DNA of 64,000 nt from Escherichia coli (GTDB taxonomy: Bacteria > Pseudomonadota > Gammaproteobacteria > Enterobacterales > Enterobacteriaceae), in the NCBI RefSeq assembly GCF_024502345.1, contig NZ_JALDNN010000001.1; one strand, written 5' to 3'. The notes below the pieces were generated by a model. The model made no database searches, was not told the origin of the DNA, and saw nothing but the letters and a program-made list of their open reading frames with translations. A program made the translations under genes and the position numbers. Below, one piece after another: positions 40,268-46,356 of the stretch. The stretch's first letter is position 1; each line of letters starts with the position of its first letter.

Positions 40268-40285
40268 GGCTTTGTTGAATAAATC
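40268..40285. repeat. IS903 left terminal inverted repeat
   Basis: GGCTTTGTTGAATAAATC. Confidence 0.9.
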
Positions 40286-40299
40286 GAACTTTTGCTGAG

Positions 40300-41268
40300 T
40301 TGAAGGATCAGATCACGTATCTTCCCGACAACGCAGACCGTTCCGTGGCAAAGCAAAAGTTCAAAATCACCAACTGGCCCACCTACAATAAAGCCCTCAT
40401 CAACCGTGGCTCCATAACTTTCTGGCTGGATGATGAAGCTATTCAGGCCTGGTATGAGTCAGCAACACCTTCTTCACGAGGCAGACCTCAGCGCTATTCT
40501 GACCTTGCCATCACGACTGTGCTGGTCATTAAACGCGTATTCAGGCTGACCCTGCGCGCTGCGCAGGGCTTTATTGATTCCATTTTTTCTCTGATGAACG
40601 TTCCGCTACGCTGCCCGGATTACAGCTGTGTCAGCAGGCGGGCAAAGTCGGTTAATGTCAGTTTCAAAACGCCCACCCGGGGTGAAATCGCACACCTGGT
40701 AATTGATTCCACCGGGCTGAAGGTCTTCGGTGAAGGCGAGTGGAAAGTCAAAAAGCATGGCCAGGAACGCCGCCGTATCTGGCGTAAGCTGCATCTCGCC
40801 GTTGACAGTAAAACACATGAAATCATCTGCGCTGACCTGTCGCTGAACAACGTTACGGACTCAGAGGCCTTCCCCGGGTTAATCCGGCAAACCCACCGGA
40901 AAATCAGGTCAGCCGCCGCCGATGGCGCTTACGATACCCGGCTATGTCACGATGAACTGCGGCGTAAGAAAATCAGCGCGCTTATCCCTCCCCGAAAAGG
41001 TGCGGGTTACTGGCCCGGTGAATATGCAGACCGTAACCGTGCAGTGGCTAATCAGCGAATGACCGGGAGTAATGCGCGGTGGAAATGGACAACAGATTAC
41101 AACCGTCGCTCGATAGCGGAAACGGCGATGTACCGGGTAAAACAGCTGTTCGGGGGTTCACTGACACTGCGTGACTACGATGGTCAGGTTGCAGAGGCTA
41201 TGGCCCTGGTACGAGCGCTGAACAAAATGACGAAAGCAGGTATGCCTGAAAGCGTGCGTATTGCCTGA
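40300..41268 (+). CDS. IS903-family DDE transposase
   Basis: ORF track 322 aa (MKDQITYLPDNADRSVAKQKFKITNWPTYNK...); the track start is a TTG codon, true initiation codon uncertain. Confidence 0.88.
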   Translation: MKDQITYLPDNADRSVAKQKFKITNWPTYNKALINRGSITFWLDDEAIQAWYESATPSSRGRPQRYSDLAITTVLVIKRVFRLTLRAAQGFIDSIFSLMNVPLRCPDYSCVSRRAKSVNVSFKTPTRGEIAHLVIDSTGLKVFGEGEWKVKKHGQERRRIWRKLHLAVDSKTHEIICADLSLNNVTDSEAFPGLIRQTHRKIRSAAADGAYDTRLCHDELRRKKISALIPPRKGAGYWPGEYADRNRAVANQRMTGSNARWKWTTDYNRRSIAETAMYRVKQLFGGSLTLRDYDGQVAEAMALVRALNKMTKAGMPESVRIA

Positions 41269-41306
41269 AAACACAACCCGCTACGGGGGAGACTTACCCG
41301 AAATCT

Positions 41307-41324
41307 GATTTATTCAACAAAGCC
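41307..41324. repeat. IS903 right terminal inverted repeat
   Basis: GATTTATTCAACAAAGCC, exact reverse complement of the left IR. Confidence 0.9.
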
Positions 41325-42228: not shown

Positions 42229-43113
42229 TTACTTTGCAATGAGATCGGGGTCAACTTCGCTTAACCGGCTTCGTTTTGACAGGTTGCCGGTCTTTCTTTT
42301 TTTCACTTTCGCCAGTTCTTCCGCAGAGTAATGCGACGCGACATCCAGCCGTCGAAGCCCCATTTTGATGTACTCGCTGTTGATCTCAATACCAATGAAT
42401 TTTCGCCCGCTGGAGACGGCTACGGCACCGGTAGTAAAGCTACCGGCAAACGGGTCGAGAACGATATCGCCTGGGTTGGAAGAGGCGAGAATAATGCGTT
42501 TCAGTAAGGCTTCCGGTTTTTGCGTCGGGTGGTTTTCATATTCATCCATCAAATAACGCACGCGCGGAAAATCCCAGACGTTACCCGGTACTTTTTGATG
42601 ATTGTAAGGCTGTGGAGGATTTTTGCGATAATCGATCAACGCGCGCTGCGATCCGGTTTTGGCTTCTACCAGAATAGCATCACCGTTGAACGTGTAGTTC
42701 TTTGCGTCTTTCACCATCATCAGGATGGGTTCATACATGGAACCGTAGTGTTTTTTCGCCTGCACTCCAGAACTGTCATATGACCAGACGATGCGACTTT
42801 TGATGGTAAAAAGCTTGCGGCACTGGAGATCGATAAAGGGCATGTTTTCCGTACTGTTCATGATGTACATGCTGCCCTGCTTTTTCAGAACGCGGTGGCA
42901 CTCTGCAATCACTTCAAACAGCCAGTCGATAAACAGATCTTCTTTCCAGGCTTCGATCAGACCATCAAAATTTTTACCGATGTTATACGGTGGGTCGGCA
43001 AAGATCAGATCGACGCTTTCAGTAGGTAGCTTTTTAAGTTCGGCAAGGGCATCACCGTGAATAATGGTCTTAGCTTCATTACCAAACCGGGTCGGTTCAC
43101 ATCCTGTTCTCAT
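42229..43113 (-). CDS. yhdJ: DNA adenine (N6) methyltransferase YhdJ
   Basis: ORF track; DPPY catalytic motif (IFADPPYNIGK); start set at ATG 43111-43113. Confidence 0.92.
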   Translation of the reverse strand: MRTGCEPTRFGNEAKTIIHGDALAELKKLPTESVDLIFADPPYNIGKNFDGLIEAWKEDLFIDWLFEVIAECHRVLKKQGSMYIMNSTENMPFIDLQCRKLFTIKSRIVWSYDSSGVQAKKHYGSMYEPILMMVKDAKNYTFNGDAILVEAKTGSQRALIDYRKNPPQPYNHQKVPGNVWDFPRVRYLMDEYENHPTQKPEALLKRIILASSNPGDIVLDPFAGSFTTGAVAVSSGRKFIGIEINSEYIKMGLRRLDVASHYSAEELAKVKKRKTGNLSKRSRLSEVDPDLIAK

Positions 43114-43132
43114 GGTCACTCCCTTTGTGACA

Positions 43133-43177
43133 CCTATAAAAAAGGCGCTTCCCCATGCCGAGTAGCGCCTTTTTAAT
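43133..43177 (-). terminator. Intrinsic terminator that in K-12-like genomes lies directly after fis; here on the far side of the insertion
   Basis: 8-bp stem AAGGCGCT / AGCGCCTT with 14-nt loop, T-tracts on both sides. Confidence 0.7.
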
Positions 43178-43197
43178 CAAGCATTTAGCTAACCTGA

Positions 43198-43214
43198 ATT
43201 AGTTCATGCCGTAT
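43198..43214. repeat. 17-bp direct repeat TTAGTTCATGCCGTATT, distal att-like copy
   Basis: 17/17 identical to 45069-45085, which is the fis stop codon plus last codons. Confidence 0.85.
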
Positions 43215-43382
43215 TGTAAAATACAGAGTCATTATACGTAATTTATTATCACTCTAGATAATTTGTATTCATCATAAATAATTGATGCGGAAAGAGATAT
43301 TTATTTTTTATTGGCTCGCATTGTATCATCAGTTATCAGTTACTCCCTGCATACAGTTGTCAAAAAGGTTGTCATTAACTCT

Positions 43383-43551
43383 ATGGCCGAAAATAAACTC
43401 TCAGATGTTCAATTGCGTGCGTTAACCCGCAAAGTCATCGAAAAACCTTTTGATGTTGCTGACGGTGGCCAAGTTGGGTGAAAACCTGCTATGCAGCTAC
43501 CGCATAAGGGTAGTGGATTCCGCTGAAATCTTGCCGTTCATCCGATCATAA
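43383..43551 (+). pseudogene. Tyrosine-integrase N-terminal (arm-type DNA-binding domain) fragment, frameshifted and truncated
   Basis: Hand translation: MAENKLSDVQLRALTRKVIEKPFDVADGGQVG-stop, then +1 frame LGENLLCSYRIRVVDSAEILPFIRS; resembles the EKPY..DG(N/G)GLYL...WxxRY pattern of P4-type integrase N-termini. Confidence 0.45.
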
Positions 43552-43575
43552 CATCACAACAGTTGTTGCCCATTA

Positions 43576-43606
43576 CCCTGGCGAATGCCGGGGCTTTTTT
43601 TATTTT
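43576..43606 (+). terminator. Candidate intrinsic terminator downstream of the integrase fragment
   Basis: Imperfect stem CCCTGG..CCGGGG followed by CTTTTTTTATTTT. Confidence 0.3.
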
Positions 43607-43619
43607 CAAAGTGACGCCT

Positions 43620-43923
43620 AGGTGTCATTAATTTATAAGGTGTCATGGTAGGTGTCATTGTTCTCAAGCCATAACCCGCAAGGGTTGCGACATTACTAAT
43701 GACACCTATGACACCTATGACAGCATTTTTAAAGAAAATAACGACCACTGTAATAATGTAACAGTGGTCGTTATACTTTATAGAAATGGGTGTCATGGTG
43801 TCACAGGTGTCATTCATTACAGTATCTTGTTTGTATTTTTCTTTAATAATCAGCGTGTTTCCCGCTATGACACCTAATGACACCTTTCCAACATAACGCC
43901 GTCATGGTGACATTAGGTGTCAT
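43620..43923. repeat. Array of 13 copies of the 9-bp motif AGGTGTCAT in both orientations
   Basis: Forward copies at 43620, 43638, 43650, 43789, 43797 (GGTGTCAC), 43805, 43906 (GGTGACAT), 43915; reverse ATGACACCT at 43699, 43708, 43717 (degenerate), 43867, 43877. Confidence 0.85.
43738..43774. repeat. Perfect palindrome with 14-bp arms and 9-nt AT-rich loop, at the centre of the motif array
   Basis: ATAACGACCACTGT-AATAATGTA-ACAGTGGTCGTTAT. Confidence 0.85.
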
Positions 43924-44274
43924 CGCCATCTGCTGCCAAAAAAGTCAAGGTACTTCCGAGGGGGGTACAGCCTGCGGGGGCATTGGTCCCGCGTAATTCG
44001 CGTTGTGCGTGCCCCTACAAAACTCACTTTATGATTACGTCAAGTAAATCAATCATTTATGTGAATCCTATCAAAGCACTGGCACCATACGTGCGCGATT
44101 GCAAAATAAAGCGAACACGTTTTACACACGCTGAATTGTAAAGATGTGTAAATATCGATTACGCCGGATTATGCCGGGTTATTTGCAAGTATTCAGGGTT
44201 ATAAGTTACTGATTTTACATTAAAAAGCTCACATTGTGGCTATTGTGTTCGGTCTGGTTACTGTATATCTTTAA

Positions 44275-44991
44275 GTCATTCCAGGCGATTTAGCTGGCCT
44301 GGCGCTGGCAGGTTATCAGATTTACCGCCATTGGGCTGGTGTGAAGGCTTTCTTTGGCGGAGTGGGTGAAGGCATCAAATCCGGGCTGGAACCGCTTAGC
44401 GACGCTCTGAGCCGCCTTTATGAACGCATGGGGCCGCTGAAACCTGTCATTGATGGTGTGGGTGCTGCGGTTAAGACGGTTTTCAACTGGTTCACGTCAT
44501 TGACCGAGCCGGTCAAGTACAGTGGCGAGGAACTGGATAAGGCCGGTAAAATGGGGATGACGTTCGGTAAGACCCTGGCGGCTGGCATCGAGCTTGTGAC
44601 CGCACCGATCACGTTCCTGATTGATAAGATTCTGTGGGTGTCTGACAACATCGGCAACCTGACCAACAAGGCACTGGAGTTTAAAAACGCCGTGTCTGAT
44701 GTTGCTGGTGGTGCGTGGCAGAAAACCAAAGATTTCTTTACCGCACCATTCCGCGACGATGTACAGCAGCCAGCAGCAACCACTGCCTCTGGTGCTGCCC
44801 TGCCGTCACCTGCACTGGCCAACCGCTCTGGTGGCACTACGGTGCATAGCAACGACCAGTACCACATCAGCGTGAAGGCAGAACCTGGTATGAATGAAGA
44901 TGCATTAGCCCGGAAGGTGATACAGCAACTACGACAGCAACAAGCAGTAAGGCAGCGAAGCATGATGATAGATGGCGCGCAAACACCATAA
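44275..44991 (+). pseudogene. 5'-truncated ORF, possibly a phage tail tape-measure-like protein C-terminal region
   Basis: Frame is open from 44275 (stop at 44272-44274) with no good start or RBS; Gly/Ala-rich and hydrophobic segments (GVGAAVKTVFNWF, ITFLIDKILWV); product guessed from composition only. Confidence 0.35.
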
Positions 44992-45068
44992 GGGTTGTCA
45001 GTACGGTTGCAACAAAAAGTAAAGGGACTGAAATAGCCCCTTTAATTTCATGCCGTTACAGCTTGACT

Positions 45069-45085
45069 TTAGTTCATGCCGTATT
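45069..45085. repeat. 17-bp direct repeat TTAGTTCATGCCGTATT, fis-proximal att-like copy overlapping the fis stop codon
   Basis: Reverse complement encodes ..K-Y-G-M-N-stop of Fis. Confidence 0.85.
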
Positions 45086-45365
45086 TTTTCAATTTTTTAC
45101 GCAGCGTACCACGGTTGATGCCCATCATCAGCGCAGCACGGGTCTGGTTACCACGGGTGTATTGCATCACCATGTCCAACAGGGGCTGTTCTACTTCAGC
45201 CAGTACCAGCTCATAGAGGTCATTCACATCCTGACCATTCAGTTGAGCAAAATAGTTCTTCAGTGCCTGTTTAACCGAGTCACGCAGGGGTTTTTGGGTT
45301 ACCTGATCCTGAGAGTTAACGGTAGAAACGGTCAGTACGTCAGAATTTACGCGTTGTTCGAACAT
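45069..45365 (-). CDS. fis: DNA-binding nucleoid protein Fis
   Basis: ORF track 98 aa [51 protein letters not shown]... Confidence 0.97.
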
Positions 45366-45390
45366 AGTTCTGTCAGCTCTTTATTTCTGT

Positions 45391-46356
45391 TTACGCAAAA
45401 TTTTCGAAGTATGCCTCCAACGCCTCCAGCTGTTCGCTGGCATCCTCAATGGCGTTGAATGTGCGCCGAAACTGGTCATTGGGAGCGTGTTCCTGGAGAT
45501 ACCAGGAAACGTGTTTACGTGCAATTCGGTACCCTTTTGCCGGACCATAAAAGTCATGCAGTTCCCGAACGTGCGCGCAAAGCAAGCGCTTAACCTCTGC
45601 CAAAGGCAGCGGGGGCAGCAACTCCCCAGTGTCCAGATAATGCTGGATTTCCCGAAAGATCCAGGGTCTTCCCTGAGCTGCGCGGCCTATCATCAGGGCA
45701 TCCGCCCCTGTATAGTCGAGCACAGCTCTGGCTTTAAGCGGGTCAGTAATGTCGCCATTCGCGATAACCGGAATGGAAACTTTCTGCTTAACTGCCTGAA
45801 TACTGTCGTACTCAGCTTCTCCATTGAACAAACAGGCGCGTGTACGGCCATGAATGGTCAGAGCCTGAATGCCACAGTCTTCAGCCAGTTGGGCAATCTC
45901 TTCGCAGTTACGGTGTTCCGGCGCCCAGCCAGTGCGAATCTTCAGGGTAACAGGAACGTCCACTGCATTGACGACCTCGGTAAGGATCGATTTAACGACT
46001 TCCGGGTACTGCAAGAGGGCTGAACCTGCGAGCTTGCGATTCACTTTTTTAGCCGGGCAACCCATATTGATATCAATAATCTGGGCACCGCTTTCCACGT
46101 TAATACGTGCTGCATCTGCCATTTCTTTCGGATCGCTACCGGCAATTTGCACGGTGCGAATACCGGGTTCATCAATGTGCACCATCCGTAAACGAGATTT
46201 ATCGCTTTCCCAAACTTGTGGGTTAGAAGACATCATCTCGGATACTGTCAATCCGGCTCCCATCTCGTAGCACAACGTCCGAAAAGGTCTGTCTGTAATG
46301 CCAGCCATGGGCGCTGCGATCAGGCGATTTCTGAGCTGATATTGTCCGATGCGCAT
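45391..46356 (-). CDS. dusB: tRNA-dihydrouridine synthase B
   Basis: ORF track 321 aa; upstream gene of the dusB-fis operon. Confidence 0.95.

What the first reader, a model, noticed from the sequence alone, without database searches (positions are those of the whole stretch)
44275..44991. 5'-truncated ORF of unknown function adjacent to fis, possibly a phage structural (tape-measure-like) remnant
The frame is open from 44275 to 44991 with no convincing start or RBS; the ORF-track start is a GTG at 44341. The peptide is Gly/Ala/Val-rich with hydrophobic helices (GVGAAVKTVFNWF, GIELVTAPITFLIDKILWV) and a Gln-rich C-terminus, a composition reminiscent of tail tape-measure C-terminal regions, but I cannot assign it with confidence. 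It ends 78 bp from the fis stop, so transcription from it would run antisense into fis.
Basis: inference. Interest (0 to 1): 0.45.

Follow-up and report, generated by a model that had tools for sequence, protein, structure and literature searches.

The report
Tape-measure gene stub in decayed satellite
The open frame next to fis is the last 30% of a phage tail tape-measure gene, left when two deletions gutted a small phage-parasite island (a "fis PICI") inserted at the end of fis; it is most likely an inert relic.

Summary
Window 44275-44991 is open. From 44290 it is codons 530-762 of a 762-aa tail tape measure protein (TMP). The fragment's best phage match is 54% identical (E 2e-60) to the C-terminus of the TMP of Jilinvirus-type myoviruses.

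The source is a phage satellite, not a prophage. It is a roughly 9.5-kb PICI integrated at the 3' end of fis. This "fis PICI" family was described by Tommasini et al. 2023. The intact element is present in 47 of 5426 complete E. coli genomes, for example JML285. Its gene order is int, alpA, VapE primase, iteron origin, a late cassette, TMP.

The window keeps 1870 bp of it between exact 17-nt att repeats (43199-43215 and 45069-45085). Two microhomology deletions removed the rest:
- 3737 bp, junction TGGC at 43466-43469.
- 3912 bp, junction TA at 44291-44292.

The second deletion removed the TMP start, its Pfam and TIGRFAM domain, and the late-operon RBS. No in-frame start codon has a Shine-Dalgarno sequence. 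Integrase, AlpA and primase are gone, so the relic cannot move or replicate by itself.

It is most likely an inert pseudogene, and the finding is ordinary. The more interesting point concerns the parent: this PICI lineage keeps its own TMP under purifying selection (dN/dS 0.22), a trait so far shown experimentally only for Vibrio PLEs.

The parts
43136..43177 (-). Native fis intrinsic terminator, now displaced 1.9 kb from fis by the insertion.
   Evidence: Inverted repeat I12. RNA fold -24.2 kcal/mol, z = -3.0. In island-free E. coli, 43120-43215 abuts fis directly, 100% identical in K-12 and thousands of other genomes.
43199..43215 (.). attL identity block TTAGTTCATGCCGTATT, a duplicated copy of the fis 3' end.
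   Evidence: Exact 17-nt direct repeat with 45069-45085 (D8). It is the reverse complement of the published fis-PICI att consensus TACGGCATGAACTAA (PMC10111431).
43383..43469 (+). First 29 codons of the PICI tyrosine integrase. The rest is deleted.
   Evidence: 100% identical to the 5' end of the 411-aa integrase of the intact JML285 island. The full integrase matches phrog_1 at 4.6e-52.
43466..43469 (.). Junction of deletion 1 (3737 bp), 4-nt microhomology TGGC. It removed the rest of int, alpA, orf93, the VapE primase-helicase and the 5' part of orf74.
   Evidence: Three-way alignment with both parental sequences. Size from coordinate offsets.
43470..43551 (+). 3' part of orf74, a small gene downstream of VapE in the intact island. 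It is out of frame with the integrase stub.
43619..43926 (.). Iteron array: 11 GGTGTCA heptamers in both orientations around an A+T-rich 28-nt inverted repeat at 43724-43788. Putative replication origin of the satellite.
   Evidence: 11 of the 18 GGTGTCA copies in the 64-kb window lie here; 7.6 +/- 2.7 copies are expected for the whole window. Repeat families D2, D4, D5 and I1-I7. It lies just downstream of the primase gene in the intact island, where PICI origins map (PMC10111431). Its function as an origin is inferred.
43927..44289 (+). Non-coding leader of the satellite's late operon. The RBS and ATG of the first late gene (294 aa) were lost in deletion 2.
   Evidence: 99.8% identical to JML285 L002:12005-12825. 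The parental sequence continues ...TTGCACAACAACCGGAGCATTTTTAATG. The promoter was not identified.
44291..44292 (.). Junction of deletion 2 (3912 bp), 2-nt microhomology TA. It removed six late genes and TMP codons 1-529.
   Evidence: Alignment with both parental sequences. The junction is identical in L003, L004, L005 and L008.
44290..44991 (+). Codons 530-762 plus the stop codon of the satellite's tail tape measure gene. This is the real content of the finding.
   Evidence: Ungapped and 99.7% identical to the JML285 TMP 3' end, 2 substitutions. 54% amino-acid identity to the C-terminus of the Jilinvirus ep3 TMP. It lacks PF10145 (parent residues 156-359) and TIGR01760 (residues 111-467).
45020..45044 (-). 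Island-supplied hairpin plus U-tract that now terminates fis. It lies between the TMP stub and fis.
   Evidence: Terminator scan. Fold -24.6 kcal/mol, z = -2.7 on the fis-sense strand; weaker on the + strand, -17.7 kcal/mol, z = -0.5.
45069..45085 (.). attR identity block. It forms the last codons and the stop codon of the intact fis gene (45069-45365, - strand).

Best explanation
The ORF is a dead 3' stub of the tail tape measure gene of a fis-integrating phage-inducible chromosomal island (a PICI-type phage satellite).

Sequence of events, with basis:
1. A ~9.5-kb satellite integrated by site-specific recombination into the last codons of fis. Its order is int, alpA, orf93, VapE primase-helicase, orf74, iteron origin, late cassette p294-p104-p54-p105-p69-p68, TMP. 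Shown by the att repeats and by intact copies at the same site.
2. One illegitimate recombination event at a 2-nt microhomology deleted 3912 bp. It fused the late-operon leader to TMP codon 530. Shown.
3. A second deletion at a 4-nt microhomology removed 3737 bp, from integrase codon 30 into orf74. Shown. The order of events is inferred from contigs that carry only the first deletion.

What remains is 1870 bp with no recombinase, no excisionase and no replicase. The TMP stub has no start codon context, no RBS and no family-defining domain. It is most likely untranslated and without function (inferred). The relic's only present roles are passive: attR completes the fis reading frame, and the island's terminal hairpin serves as the fis terminator.
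For: - TMP identity: tblastn 2e-60, 54% identity to the C-terminal 235 aa of the 785-aa TMP of phage ep3. PHROG TMP families match.
- Parent gene: the 762-aa TMP of JML285 is homologous end to end with Iiscvirinae TMPs at 42-48%. It matches phrog_28 at 3.7e-103, PF10145 and TIGR01760 at 225.9 bits against a cut-off of 28.8.
- Intact island at the same site: yhdJ-[island]-fis in JML285. 47 of 5426 complete E. coli genomes have at least 80% of it.
- Junctions and microhomologies.
- att repeat. It matches the published fis-PICI identity block, and the published four-zone organisation fits.
- Satellite character: AlpA (phrog_66), integrase (phrog_1), and a terS in a sister island (phrog_57, 4.4e-26). 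VapE primase-helicase hits. A circular 8.9-kb relative with no annotated integrase, pM121-3.
- Stepwise decay: contigs with deletion 2 only (L005, L008), with a different integrase truncation (L004), or with both deletions (L003, L006, L007, L009, L010) share the identical deletion-2 junction.
- No expression signals: no Shine-Dalgarno sequence and no + strand promoter-like site between 43757 and the ORF.
- No domain or defence-family hit for the stub.
Against: - Non-function is inferred, not shown. The stub has no frameshift or internal stop. That is uninformative, because it differs from the intact gene at only 2 of 778 nt, so the deletion is recent.
- The late-operon leader, and perhaps its promoter, is still upstream, so a transcript may exist.
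- The identical relic sits in E. coli backgrounds whose flanks differ by about 2%. It has therefore spread or persisted, which could be read as weak evidence of retention.
Confidence: 0.88

Rival explanations
1. The truncated TMP C-terminus is still made, from the GTG at 44341 or an internal ATG, driven by the surviving late-operon leader. It would act as a dominant-negative or decoy that poisons tail assembly or DNA injection of phages with related tails. That would make it a domesticated anti-phage factor.
For: - The same deletion-2 allele is present on at least 23 contigs, in several structural contexts and in divergent chromosomal backgrounds, with 0 of 1849 nt changed.
- TMPs are known targets of tail-assembly interference (PLE11 Rta).
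- The frame is intact.
Against: - No RBS, no promoter-like site and no PADLOC hit.
- Sequence identity among copies is explained by recency.
- Spread is explained by homologous recombination: the identity tract extends 337 nt past attL and 395 nt past attR into chromosomal DNA.
- Other fis islands show unrelated TMP disruptions, for example ISEc12 in strain 98202, as expected from random decay.
Confidence: 0.05
2. The stub is the remnant of an ordinary temperate prophage that once sat next to fis, not of a satellite.
For: The only recognisable structural gene is a TMP whose closest relatives are in complete myovirus genomes.
Against: - The intact parent is only 9.5 kb. It has an inward-facing int plus alpA plus a VapE primase plus an iteron origin, and no capsid, portal, sheath, tube or baseplate genes.
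- The small island ORFs have no counterpart next to the phage ep3 TMP.
- A survey of 3565 fis islands found AlpA in nearly all and none of two prophage tail signature families. [quoted passage not shown]
Confidence: 0.03
3. It is an intact cargo gene for a 216-aa protein family of its own. This is the refutation case the first reader named.
For: Gene callers predict it, and NCBI lists it as a 216-aa hypothetical protein.
Against: - All homologues covering it are the C-termini of 760-790-aa TMPs.
- The 5' boundary is a mapped deletion junction.
- Its 90% cluster holds only truncated or partial E. coli copies.
Confidence: 0.01

Closest known systems
fis PICIs (Gram-negative phage-inducible chromosomal islands integrated at the 3' end of fis; Tommasini, Mageeney & Williams 2023, PMC10111431)
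   Same: - Same attachment site and identity block (TACGGCATGAACTAA, which includes the fis stop codon).
- Same neighbour across the island (yhdJ).
- In the intact parent, the same zone order: integration (int + AlpA), replication (primase, origin), and a late zone with phage-derived late genes.
- Tandem arrays occur, as the paper describes (L008).
- The paper also lists very short (<4 kb) alpA-less fis islands.
   Different: - The window copy is a 1.87-kb doubly deleted relic with no intact gene.
- The paper's main text does not mention tape measure genes, whereas this lineage's late zone ends in a full TMP.
- I found no recognisable Bro-network gene; orf93 has no family hit.
Tail tape measure proteins of Iiscvirinae / Jilinvirus-type myoviruses (Escherichia phages vB_EcoM-ep3, ECO1230-10, ECOO78, Bas97; Pseudomonas phages PPpW-3 and Persinger)
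   Same: End-to-end colinear homology of the parent TMP (42-48% identity, 762 vs ~760-785 aa). The window stub is 54% identical to their C-terminal ~235 residues.
   Different: - In those phages the TMP sits inside a complete tail module, followed by tail and baseplate-hub genes. Here it is the last gene of a satellite, next to attR, with unrelated upstream genes.
- The window copy lacks the N-terminal 70%.
PLE-encoded tape measure proteins of Vibrio cholerae satellites (chimeric tails; bioRxiv 10.1101/2025.01.29.635557)
   Same: A small integrative satellite that carries its own TMP gene and relies on a helper for the rest of the tail. This is the likeliest analogy for what the intact parent does with its TMP.
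   Different: - PLEs also encode a tail assembly chaperone and a baseplate hub protein, and they parasitise the lytic phage ICP1.
- No chaperone or hub protein was recognisable here.
- No experiment exists for the E. coli element.
- The window copy is only a stub.
EPIPs of Mycolicibacterium aichiense (bioRxiv 10.64898/2025.12.02.691453)
   Same: A satellite of about 11 kb that carries a TMP, reported as unusual for satellites.
   Different: Actinobacterial host, serine integrase, and its own capsid, scaffold and connector genes. There is no sequence relationship.

Membership tests
Phage tail tape measure protein (TMP) | Carries the family-defining domain (Pfam PF10145 PhageMin_Tail or TIGR01760 tape_meas_TP901). 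| tested here: not met
   The window stub has no Pfam or NCBIfam hit. The intact parent has PF10145 at residues 156-359 (7.6e-38) and TIGR01760 at 111-467 (225.9 bits, cut-off 28.8). Both lie in the deleted part. The stub is therefore a fragment of a TMP gene, not a TMP.
Phage tail tape measure protein (TMP) | Colinear homology with the TMPs of sequenced tailed phages. | tested here: met
   Stub residues 6-238 align to the C-terminal end of the ep3 TMP (E 2e-60). The parent aligns over residues 1-762.
Phage tail tape measure protein (TMP) | Complete reading frame with its own translation start and a length that matches the tail. | tested here: not met
   Only 233 of 762 codons remain. The 5' end is a deletion junction. 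No Shine-Dalgarno sequence precedes any in-frame start.
Phage tail tape measure protein (TMP) | Incorporated in the tail lumen and sets tail length. | not testable with these tools
   This needs virion proteomics or electron microscopy.
fis PICI (Gram-negative PICI integrated at fis) | Flanked by attL and attR identity blocks matching the fis 3' end (consensus TACGGCATGAACTAA). | tested here: met
   Exact 17-nt direct repeat at 43199-43215 and 45069-45085 contains the consensus (paper). In genomes without the island, 43120-43215 abuts fis.
fis PICI (Gram-negative PICI integrated at fis) | Integration zone: inward-facing tyrosine integrase plus AlpA. | tested here: not met
   The window has only integrase codons 1-29 (43383-43469), and alpA is deleted. 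Both are intact in the parent. The window element is a relic of a member, not a functional member.
fis PICI (Gram-negative PICI integrated at fis) | Replication zone: primase/helicase gene with an adjacent origin. | tested here: inconclusive
   The primase is deleted from the window. The iteron cluster at 43619-43926 survives. The parent has a 562-aa VapE protein (phrog_2249, 1.2e-82). Origin activity was not tested.
fis PICI (Gram-negative PICI integrated at fis) | Late zone carrying phage-derived late genes. | tested here: met
   The TMP stub is at 44290-44991. The parent's late cassette ends in a full TMP, and a sister island also has terS.
fis PICI (Gram-negative PICI integrated at fis) | Helper-dependent induction, excision and packaging. 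| not testable with these tools
   The only indirect hint is a circular 8.9-kb relative assembled as the plasmid pM121-3. The paper cites mitomycin-induced excision of a Klebsiella fis PICI.

The most novel reading that the evidence does not exclude
The relic marks an E. coli lineage of fis PICIs that maintains its own tape measure gene. Intact copies would then build chimeric tails (satellite TMP inside helper-made tubes and sheaths), as Vibrio PLEs do. TMP alleles would be swapped to match helpers or to evade TMP-targeted exclusion.

Evidence from other genomes:
- The intact TMP is under purifying selection (dN/dS 0.22).
- It is the constant last gene of a conserved late cassette.
- It occurs as alleles 59-94% identical beside neighbours 78-99% identical.

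This would be the first such case in Enterobacteria. It concerns the parent element, not the inert stub in this window. A more exotic reading, that the stub itself is a domesticated tail-assembly poison, has a probability of about 0.05.
Probability: 0.45. Interest if true: 0.55.

Novelty: new member of a known kind. Interest (0 to 1): 0.2.

Why it matters
For this window it matters mainly for annotation. A "hypothetical protein" (WP_249440348.1) next to a global regulator is a pseudogene fragment inside a 1.87-kb satellite scar. The fis terminator in these strains is supplied by that scar.

More broadly, the scar points to a set of about 9.5-kb E. coli satellites that carry a full tape measure gene. 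Satellite-encoded TMPs have been shown to work only in Vibrio PLEs. An E. coli system would be far easier to study. It could address why a satellite replaces only the tail's internal ruler and injection protein.

Tried and rejected
- Exact-match scan of GTDB representative genomes for the deletion-2 junction found 0 hits. This is uninformative, because there is one genome per species.
- The complete RefSeq E. coli set has no copy of the doubly deleted relic or of deletion 2. The relic was found instead through the exact-protein index.
- Rfam gave only sub-threshold miRNA-hairpin hits over the origin's inverted repeat, and STnc40 below its cut-off over the native fis terminator. I found no sRNA.
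- PADLOC gave no defence-family hit for the stub, the full TMP or three late proteins.
- The 294-aa first late protein has no PHROG, Pfam or NCBIfam hit. Its only phage tblastn hit is weak (4e-3) and partial (43% of the query), to a Microviridae replication protein; I treat it as noise. Its role, perhaps capsid-size redirection, stays open.
- I looked for a tail assembly chaperone upstream of the TMP. The island's 105-, 69- and 68-aa ORFs, and the overlapping alternative frame, show no similarity to the region upstream of the phage ep3 TMP. A chaperone is neither shown nor excluded.
- Site-specific mobilisation in trans as the explanation for the relic's spread is less likely. The 100% identity tract runs past both att blocks into chromosomal DNA, which favours homologous recombination.
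- The PDB has only a weak match (8kea_G, "tmp", E 8e-4). It adds no functional information.

Full report
**1. The observation**

The frame is open from 44275 to the TAA at 44989-44991, and it is preceded by an in-frame TAA at 44272-44274. The first possible start is the GTG at 44341, which gives the 216-aa ORF listed mechanically. None of the 16 in-frame ATG/GTG/TTG codons has a credible Shine-Dalgarno sequence upstream. Its stop lies 77 nt from the fis stop codon, which is at 45069-45071 on the - strand. The description is accurate.

**2. What the ORF is**

- The 238-aa translation matches 278 phage records by tblastn. The best match is 54% identity over residues 6-238 (E 2e-60) to Escherichia phage vB_EcoM-ep3 and its relatives.
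- In ep3 the match covers the last 705 nt of the annotated 2358-nt tail length tape measure gene.
- The PHROG hits are to TMP families or to unnamed families, and always to their C-terminal profile positions.
- The stub has no Pfam, NCBIfam or PADLOC hit.

**3. Where it came from**

The surrounding genes are those of E. coli: acrEF, acrS, yhdU, yhdJ, then an insert, then fis, dusB, prmA and panF.

In nearly all 5426 complete E. coli genomes, bases 43120-43215 directly abut fis. About 1.9 kb of the window is therefore an insertion.

E. coli JML285 carries a 9519-bp island at exactly this site. Its genes are a tyrosine integrase (411 aa), an AlpA-type regulator/excisionase (annotated helix-turn-helix; Phage_AlpA hit on the same gene in L005), orf93, a 562-aa VapE primase-helicase and orf74. 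A 760-bp non-coding stretch follows. After that come six small or unknown late genes (294, 104, 54, 105, 69 and 68 aa) and a 762-aa "phage tail tape measure protein" that ends 77 nt from fis.

The JML285 TMP is a true TMP:
- phrog_28 at 3.7e-103.
- PF10145 at residues 156-359.
- TIGR01760 at residues 111-467, 225.9 bits against a cut-off of 28.8.
- End-to-end homology at 42-48% identity with the TMPs of Iiscvirinae myoviruses.

**4. How the stub arose**

Alignments of the window against JML285 show three colinear blocks at 99.7-100% identity, separated by two clean deletions.

| Deletion | Size | Junction in window | What was lost |
|---|---|---|---|
| 1 | 3737 bp | TGGC, 43466-43469 | integrase from codon 30, alpA, orf93, VapE, the 5' part of orf74 |
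| 2 | 3912 bp | TA, 44291-44292 | RBS and ATG of the first late gene, all six late genes, TMP codons 1-529 |

Deletion 2 joins the late-operon leader to TMP codon 530. The junction cut falls just before the parental sequence ...CCGGAGCATTTTTAATG, so that RBS and ATG are gone.

The TMP-derived sequence therefore runs from 44290 to 44991. The five codons at 44275-44289 are accidental read-through. The stub is ungapped relative to the intact gene and differs at 2 of 778 nt. The deletion is thus recent, and the intact frame says nothing about selection.

The relic measures 1870 bp from one att repeat to the other. The repeats are exact 17-nt direct copies, TTAGTTCATGCCGTATT, at 43199-43215 and 45069-45085.

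**5. The parent element is a known kind**

Tommasini, Mageeney and Williams (2023, PMC10111431) catalogued 3565 genomic islands integrated at the 3' end of fis in Enterobacterales.
- Their att identity block is TACGGCATGAACTAA, the reverse complement of the repeat found here.
- They describe a four-zone organisation: integration with Int and AlpA, Bro, replication with primase and origin, and a late zone with captured prophage late genes.
- They concluded that these islands are PICIs and that prophages do not use the site.
- They report tandems and a few alpA-less islands shorter than 4 kb.

The JML285-type island fits this scheme.

Further support for a satellite identity:
- A sister island in strain 98202 has a small terminase gene in the late zone (phrog_57, 4.4e-26).
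- IMG/VR holds ~9.5-kb contigs with the same late cassette.
- An iteron cluster lies just downstream of the primase gene. It has 11 GGTGTCA heptamers within about 300 bp around an A+T-rich inverted repeat. This is where PICI origins map, and it survives in the window at 43619-43926.

The main text of that paper does not mention tape measure genes.

**6. Distribution and decay series**

The intact island, at 80% coverage or more and 94-100% identity, is in 47 of 5426 complete E. coli genomes.

The exact 216-aa product is on record as WP_249440348.1, "hypothetical protein", and on at least 23 contigs. These contigs form a decay series that shares the identical deletion-2 junction:
- Deletion 2 only, with int, alpA, orf93, VapE and orf74 intact (L005).
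- The same, followed by a second PICI in tandem (L008).
- A 285-aa integrase fragment (L004).
- The doubly deleted form of this window (L003, L006, L007, L009, L010).

Deletion 2 therefore came first.

L003 is 99.98% identical to the window over 9.7 kb but lacks the IS element in acrS. In L006 and L007 the relic is 100% identical (0 of 1849 nt) while the chromosomal flanks differ by about 2%. The identity tract runs from 42863 to 45480, beyond both att blocks. This favours spread of the scar by homologous recombination rather than by site-specific mobilisation.

**7. Likely function**

The relic has no integrase, excisionase or replicase. The stub lacks a start context, an RBS and the N-terminal 70% of the protein, including the family-defining domain. 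The scan found no + strand promoter-like site between 43757 and the ORF.

My best explanation, at confidence about 0.88, is an inert pseudogene fragment.

Two passive consequences of the scar are real:
- attR supplies the last codons and the stop of an intact, canonical 98-aa Fis.
- The native fis terminator is displaced to 43136-43177. The hairpin at 45044-45020, which comes from the island's end, now follows fis. It folds at -24.6 kcal/mol (z = -2.7) and is followed by CUUUUUGUU.

On the + strand the same hairpin is weaker (-17.7 kcal/mol, z = -0.5) and has an interrupted U-tract. Transcription from the stub into fis is therefore impeded but not excluded.

**8. Rivals**

- A translated C-terminal TMP piece acting as a tail-assembly decoy cannot be excluded. 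It has no positive support beyond persistence of the allele. I put it at about 0.05.
- A prophage origin is contradicted by the parent's gene content and by the published survey. About 0.03.
- A free-standing 216-aa family is refuted by the mapped junction and by the fact that all homologues are TMP C-termini. About 0.01.

**9. The more interesting point concerns the parent, not this window**

- Between JML285 and pM121-3 the full TMP has dN/dS of 0.22 (0.14 for codons 1-529 and 0.25 for the C-terminal third). Intact satellites therefore keep the gene under purifying selection.
- The late cassette p294-p104-p54-p105-p69-p68-TMP recurs with different integrases and primases.
- The TMP itself occurs as alleles only 59-60% identical beside neighbours 78-99% identical.
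- Satellite-encoded TMPs have been demonstrated only for Vibrio PLEs. Those build chimeric tails and need their own TMP for efficient transduction (10.1101/2025.01.29.635557).
- They have also been noted in mycobacterial EPIPs, whose authors state that TMPs are otherwise absent from satellites (10.64898/2025.12.02.691453).
[quoted passage not shown] The idea is therefore not new.
- I found no description of an E. coli case in the searchable literature.

**10. Verdict**

It is a deletion relic of a tape measure gene inside a decayed member of a catalogued satellite family. Interest is 0.2. Novelty is a new (degraded) member of a known kind.

Noticed in passing
window 43619-43926: Dense iteron array: 11 GGTGTCA heptamers in both orientations around an A+T-rich 28-nt inverted repeat at 43724-43788. 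It is probably the orphaned replication origin of the satellite, left without its VapE primase. Rfam's only hits here are sub-threshold miRNA-hairpin models.
   Followed up: partly
window 40268-41324: A 1057-bp IS903-type element (IS5 family). The transposase matches NF033579 at 6e-107. It has 18-bp terminal inverted repeats GGCTTTGTTGAATAAATC and a 9-bp target duplication GCTCTGAAG. It is inserted near the 5' end of acrS (envR), the repressor of acrEF. The otherwise near-identical contig L003 lacks it.
   Followed up: partly
window 43136-43177 and 45020-45044: The native fis terminator hairpin is displaced 1.9 kb by the insertion. An island-borne hairpin plus U-tract now follows fis. Every fis-PICI carrier therefore has a different fis 3' UTR from K-12.
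   Followed up: partly
L006, L007 and L010 compared with window 42863-45480: The immobile relic is 100% identical in E. coli backgrounds whose flanking genes differ by about 2%. The identity tract extends about 340-400 nt beyond both att blocks. This suggests transfer of the scar by homologous recombination.
   Followed up: partly
L011 (NZ_CP083588.1, pM121-3, 8933 bp, circular): A relative of the island assembled as a small plasmid, with no annotated integrase. It has the same late cassette and a TMP 94% identical, but a different, larger VapE protein. It is either a plasmid-borne form or an excised replicating form of the satellite.
   Followed up: partly
L013 and L014 (IMG/VR contigs of 9450 and 9617 bp); L012 (strain 98202): The late cassette is mosaic. 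TMP alleles are only 59-60% identical beside neighbours 78-99% identical. A terS plus one extra ORF is inserted in some copies. In strain 98202 the TMP is split by ISEc12.
   Followed up: partly
L008 4926-11361: A tandem array: the deletion-2 form of this PICI is followed at its attR by a second, unrelated island with an integrase, a DUF6387 protein, AlpA and an AAA_25 protein.
   Followed up: no
L002 12853-13737 (absent from the window): The first late gene of the intact satellite encodes a conserved 294-aa protein (87-92% identity across elements). It has no PHROG, Pfam or NCBIfam match, and only a weak partial tblastn hit (4e-3) to a Microviridae replication protein. It is a candidate for a new satellite morphogenesis function.
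   Followed up: partly
window 43917-44141 (+): A 74-aa GTG ORF lies in the late-operon leader. It is conserved in JML285 but not annotated there, and it has no family evidence. It is probably non-coding.
   Followed up: no
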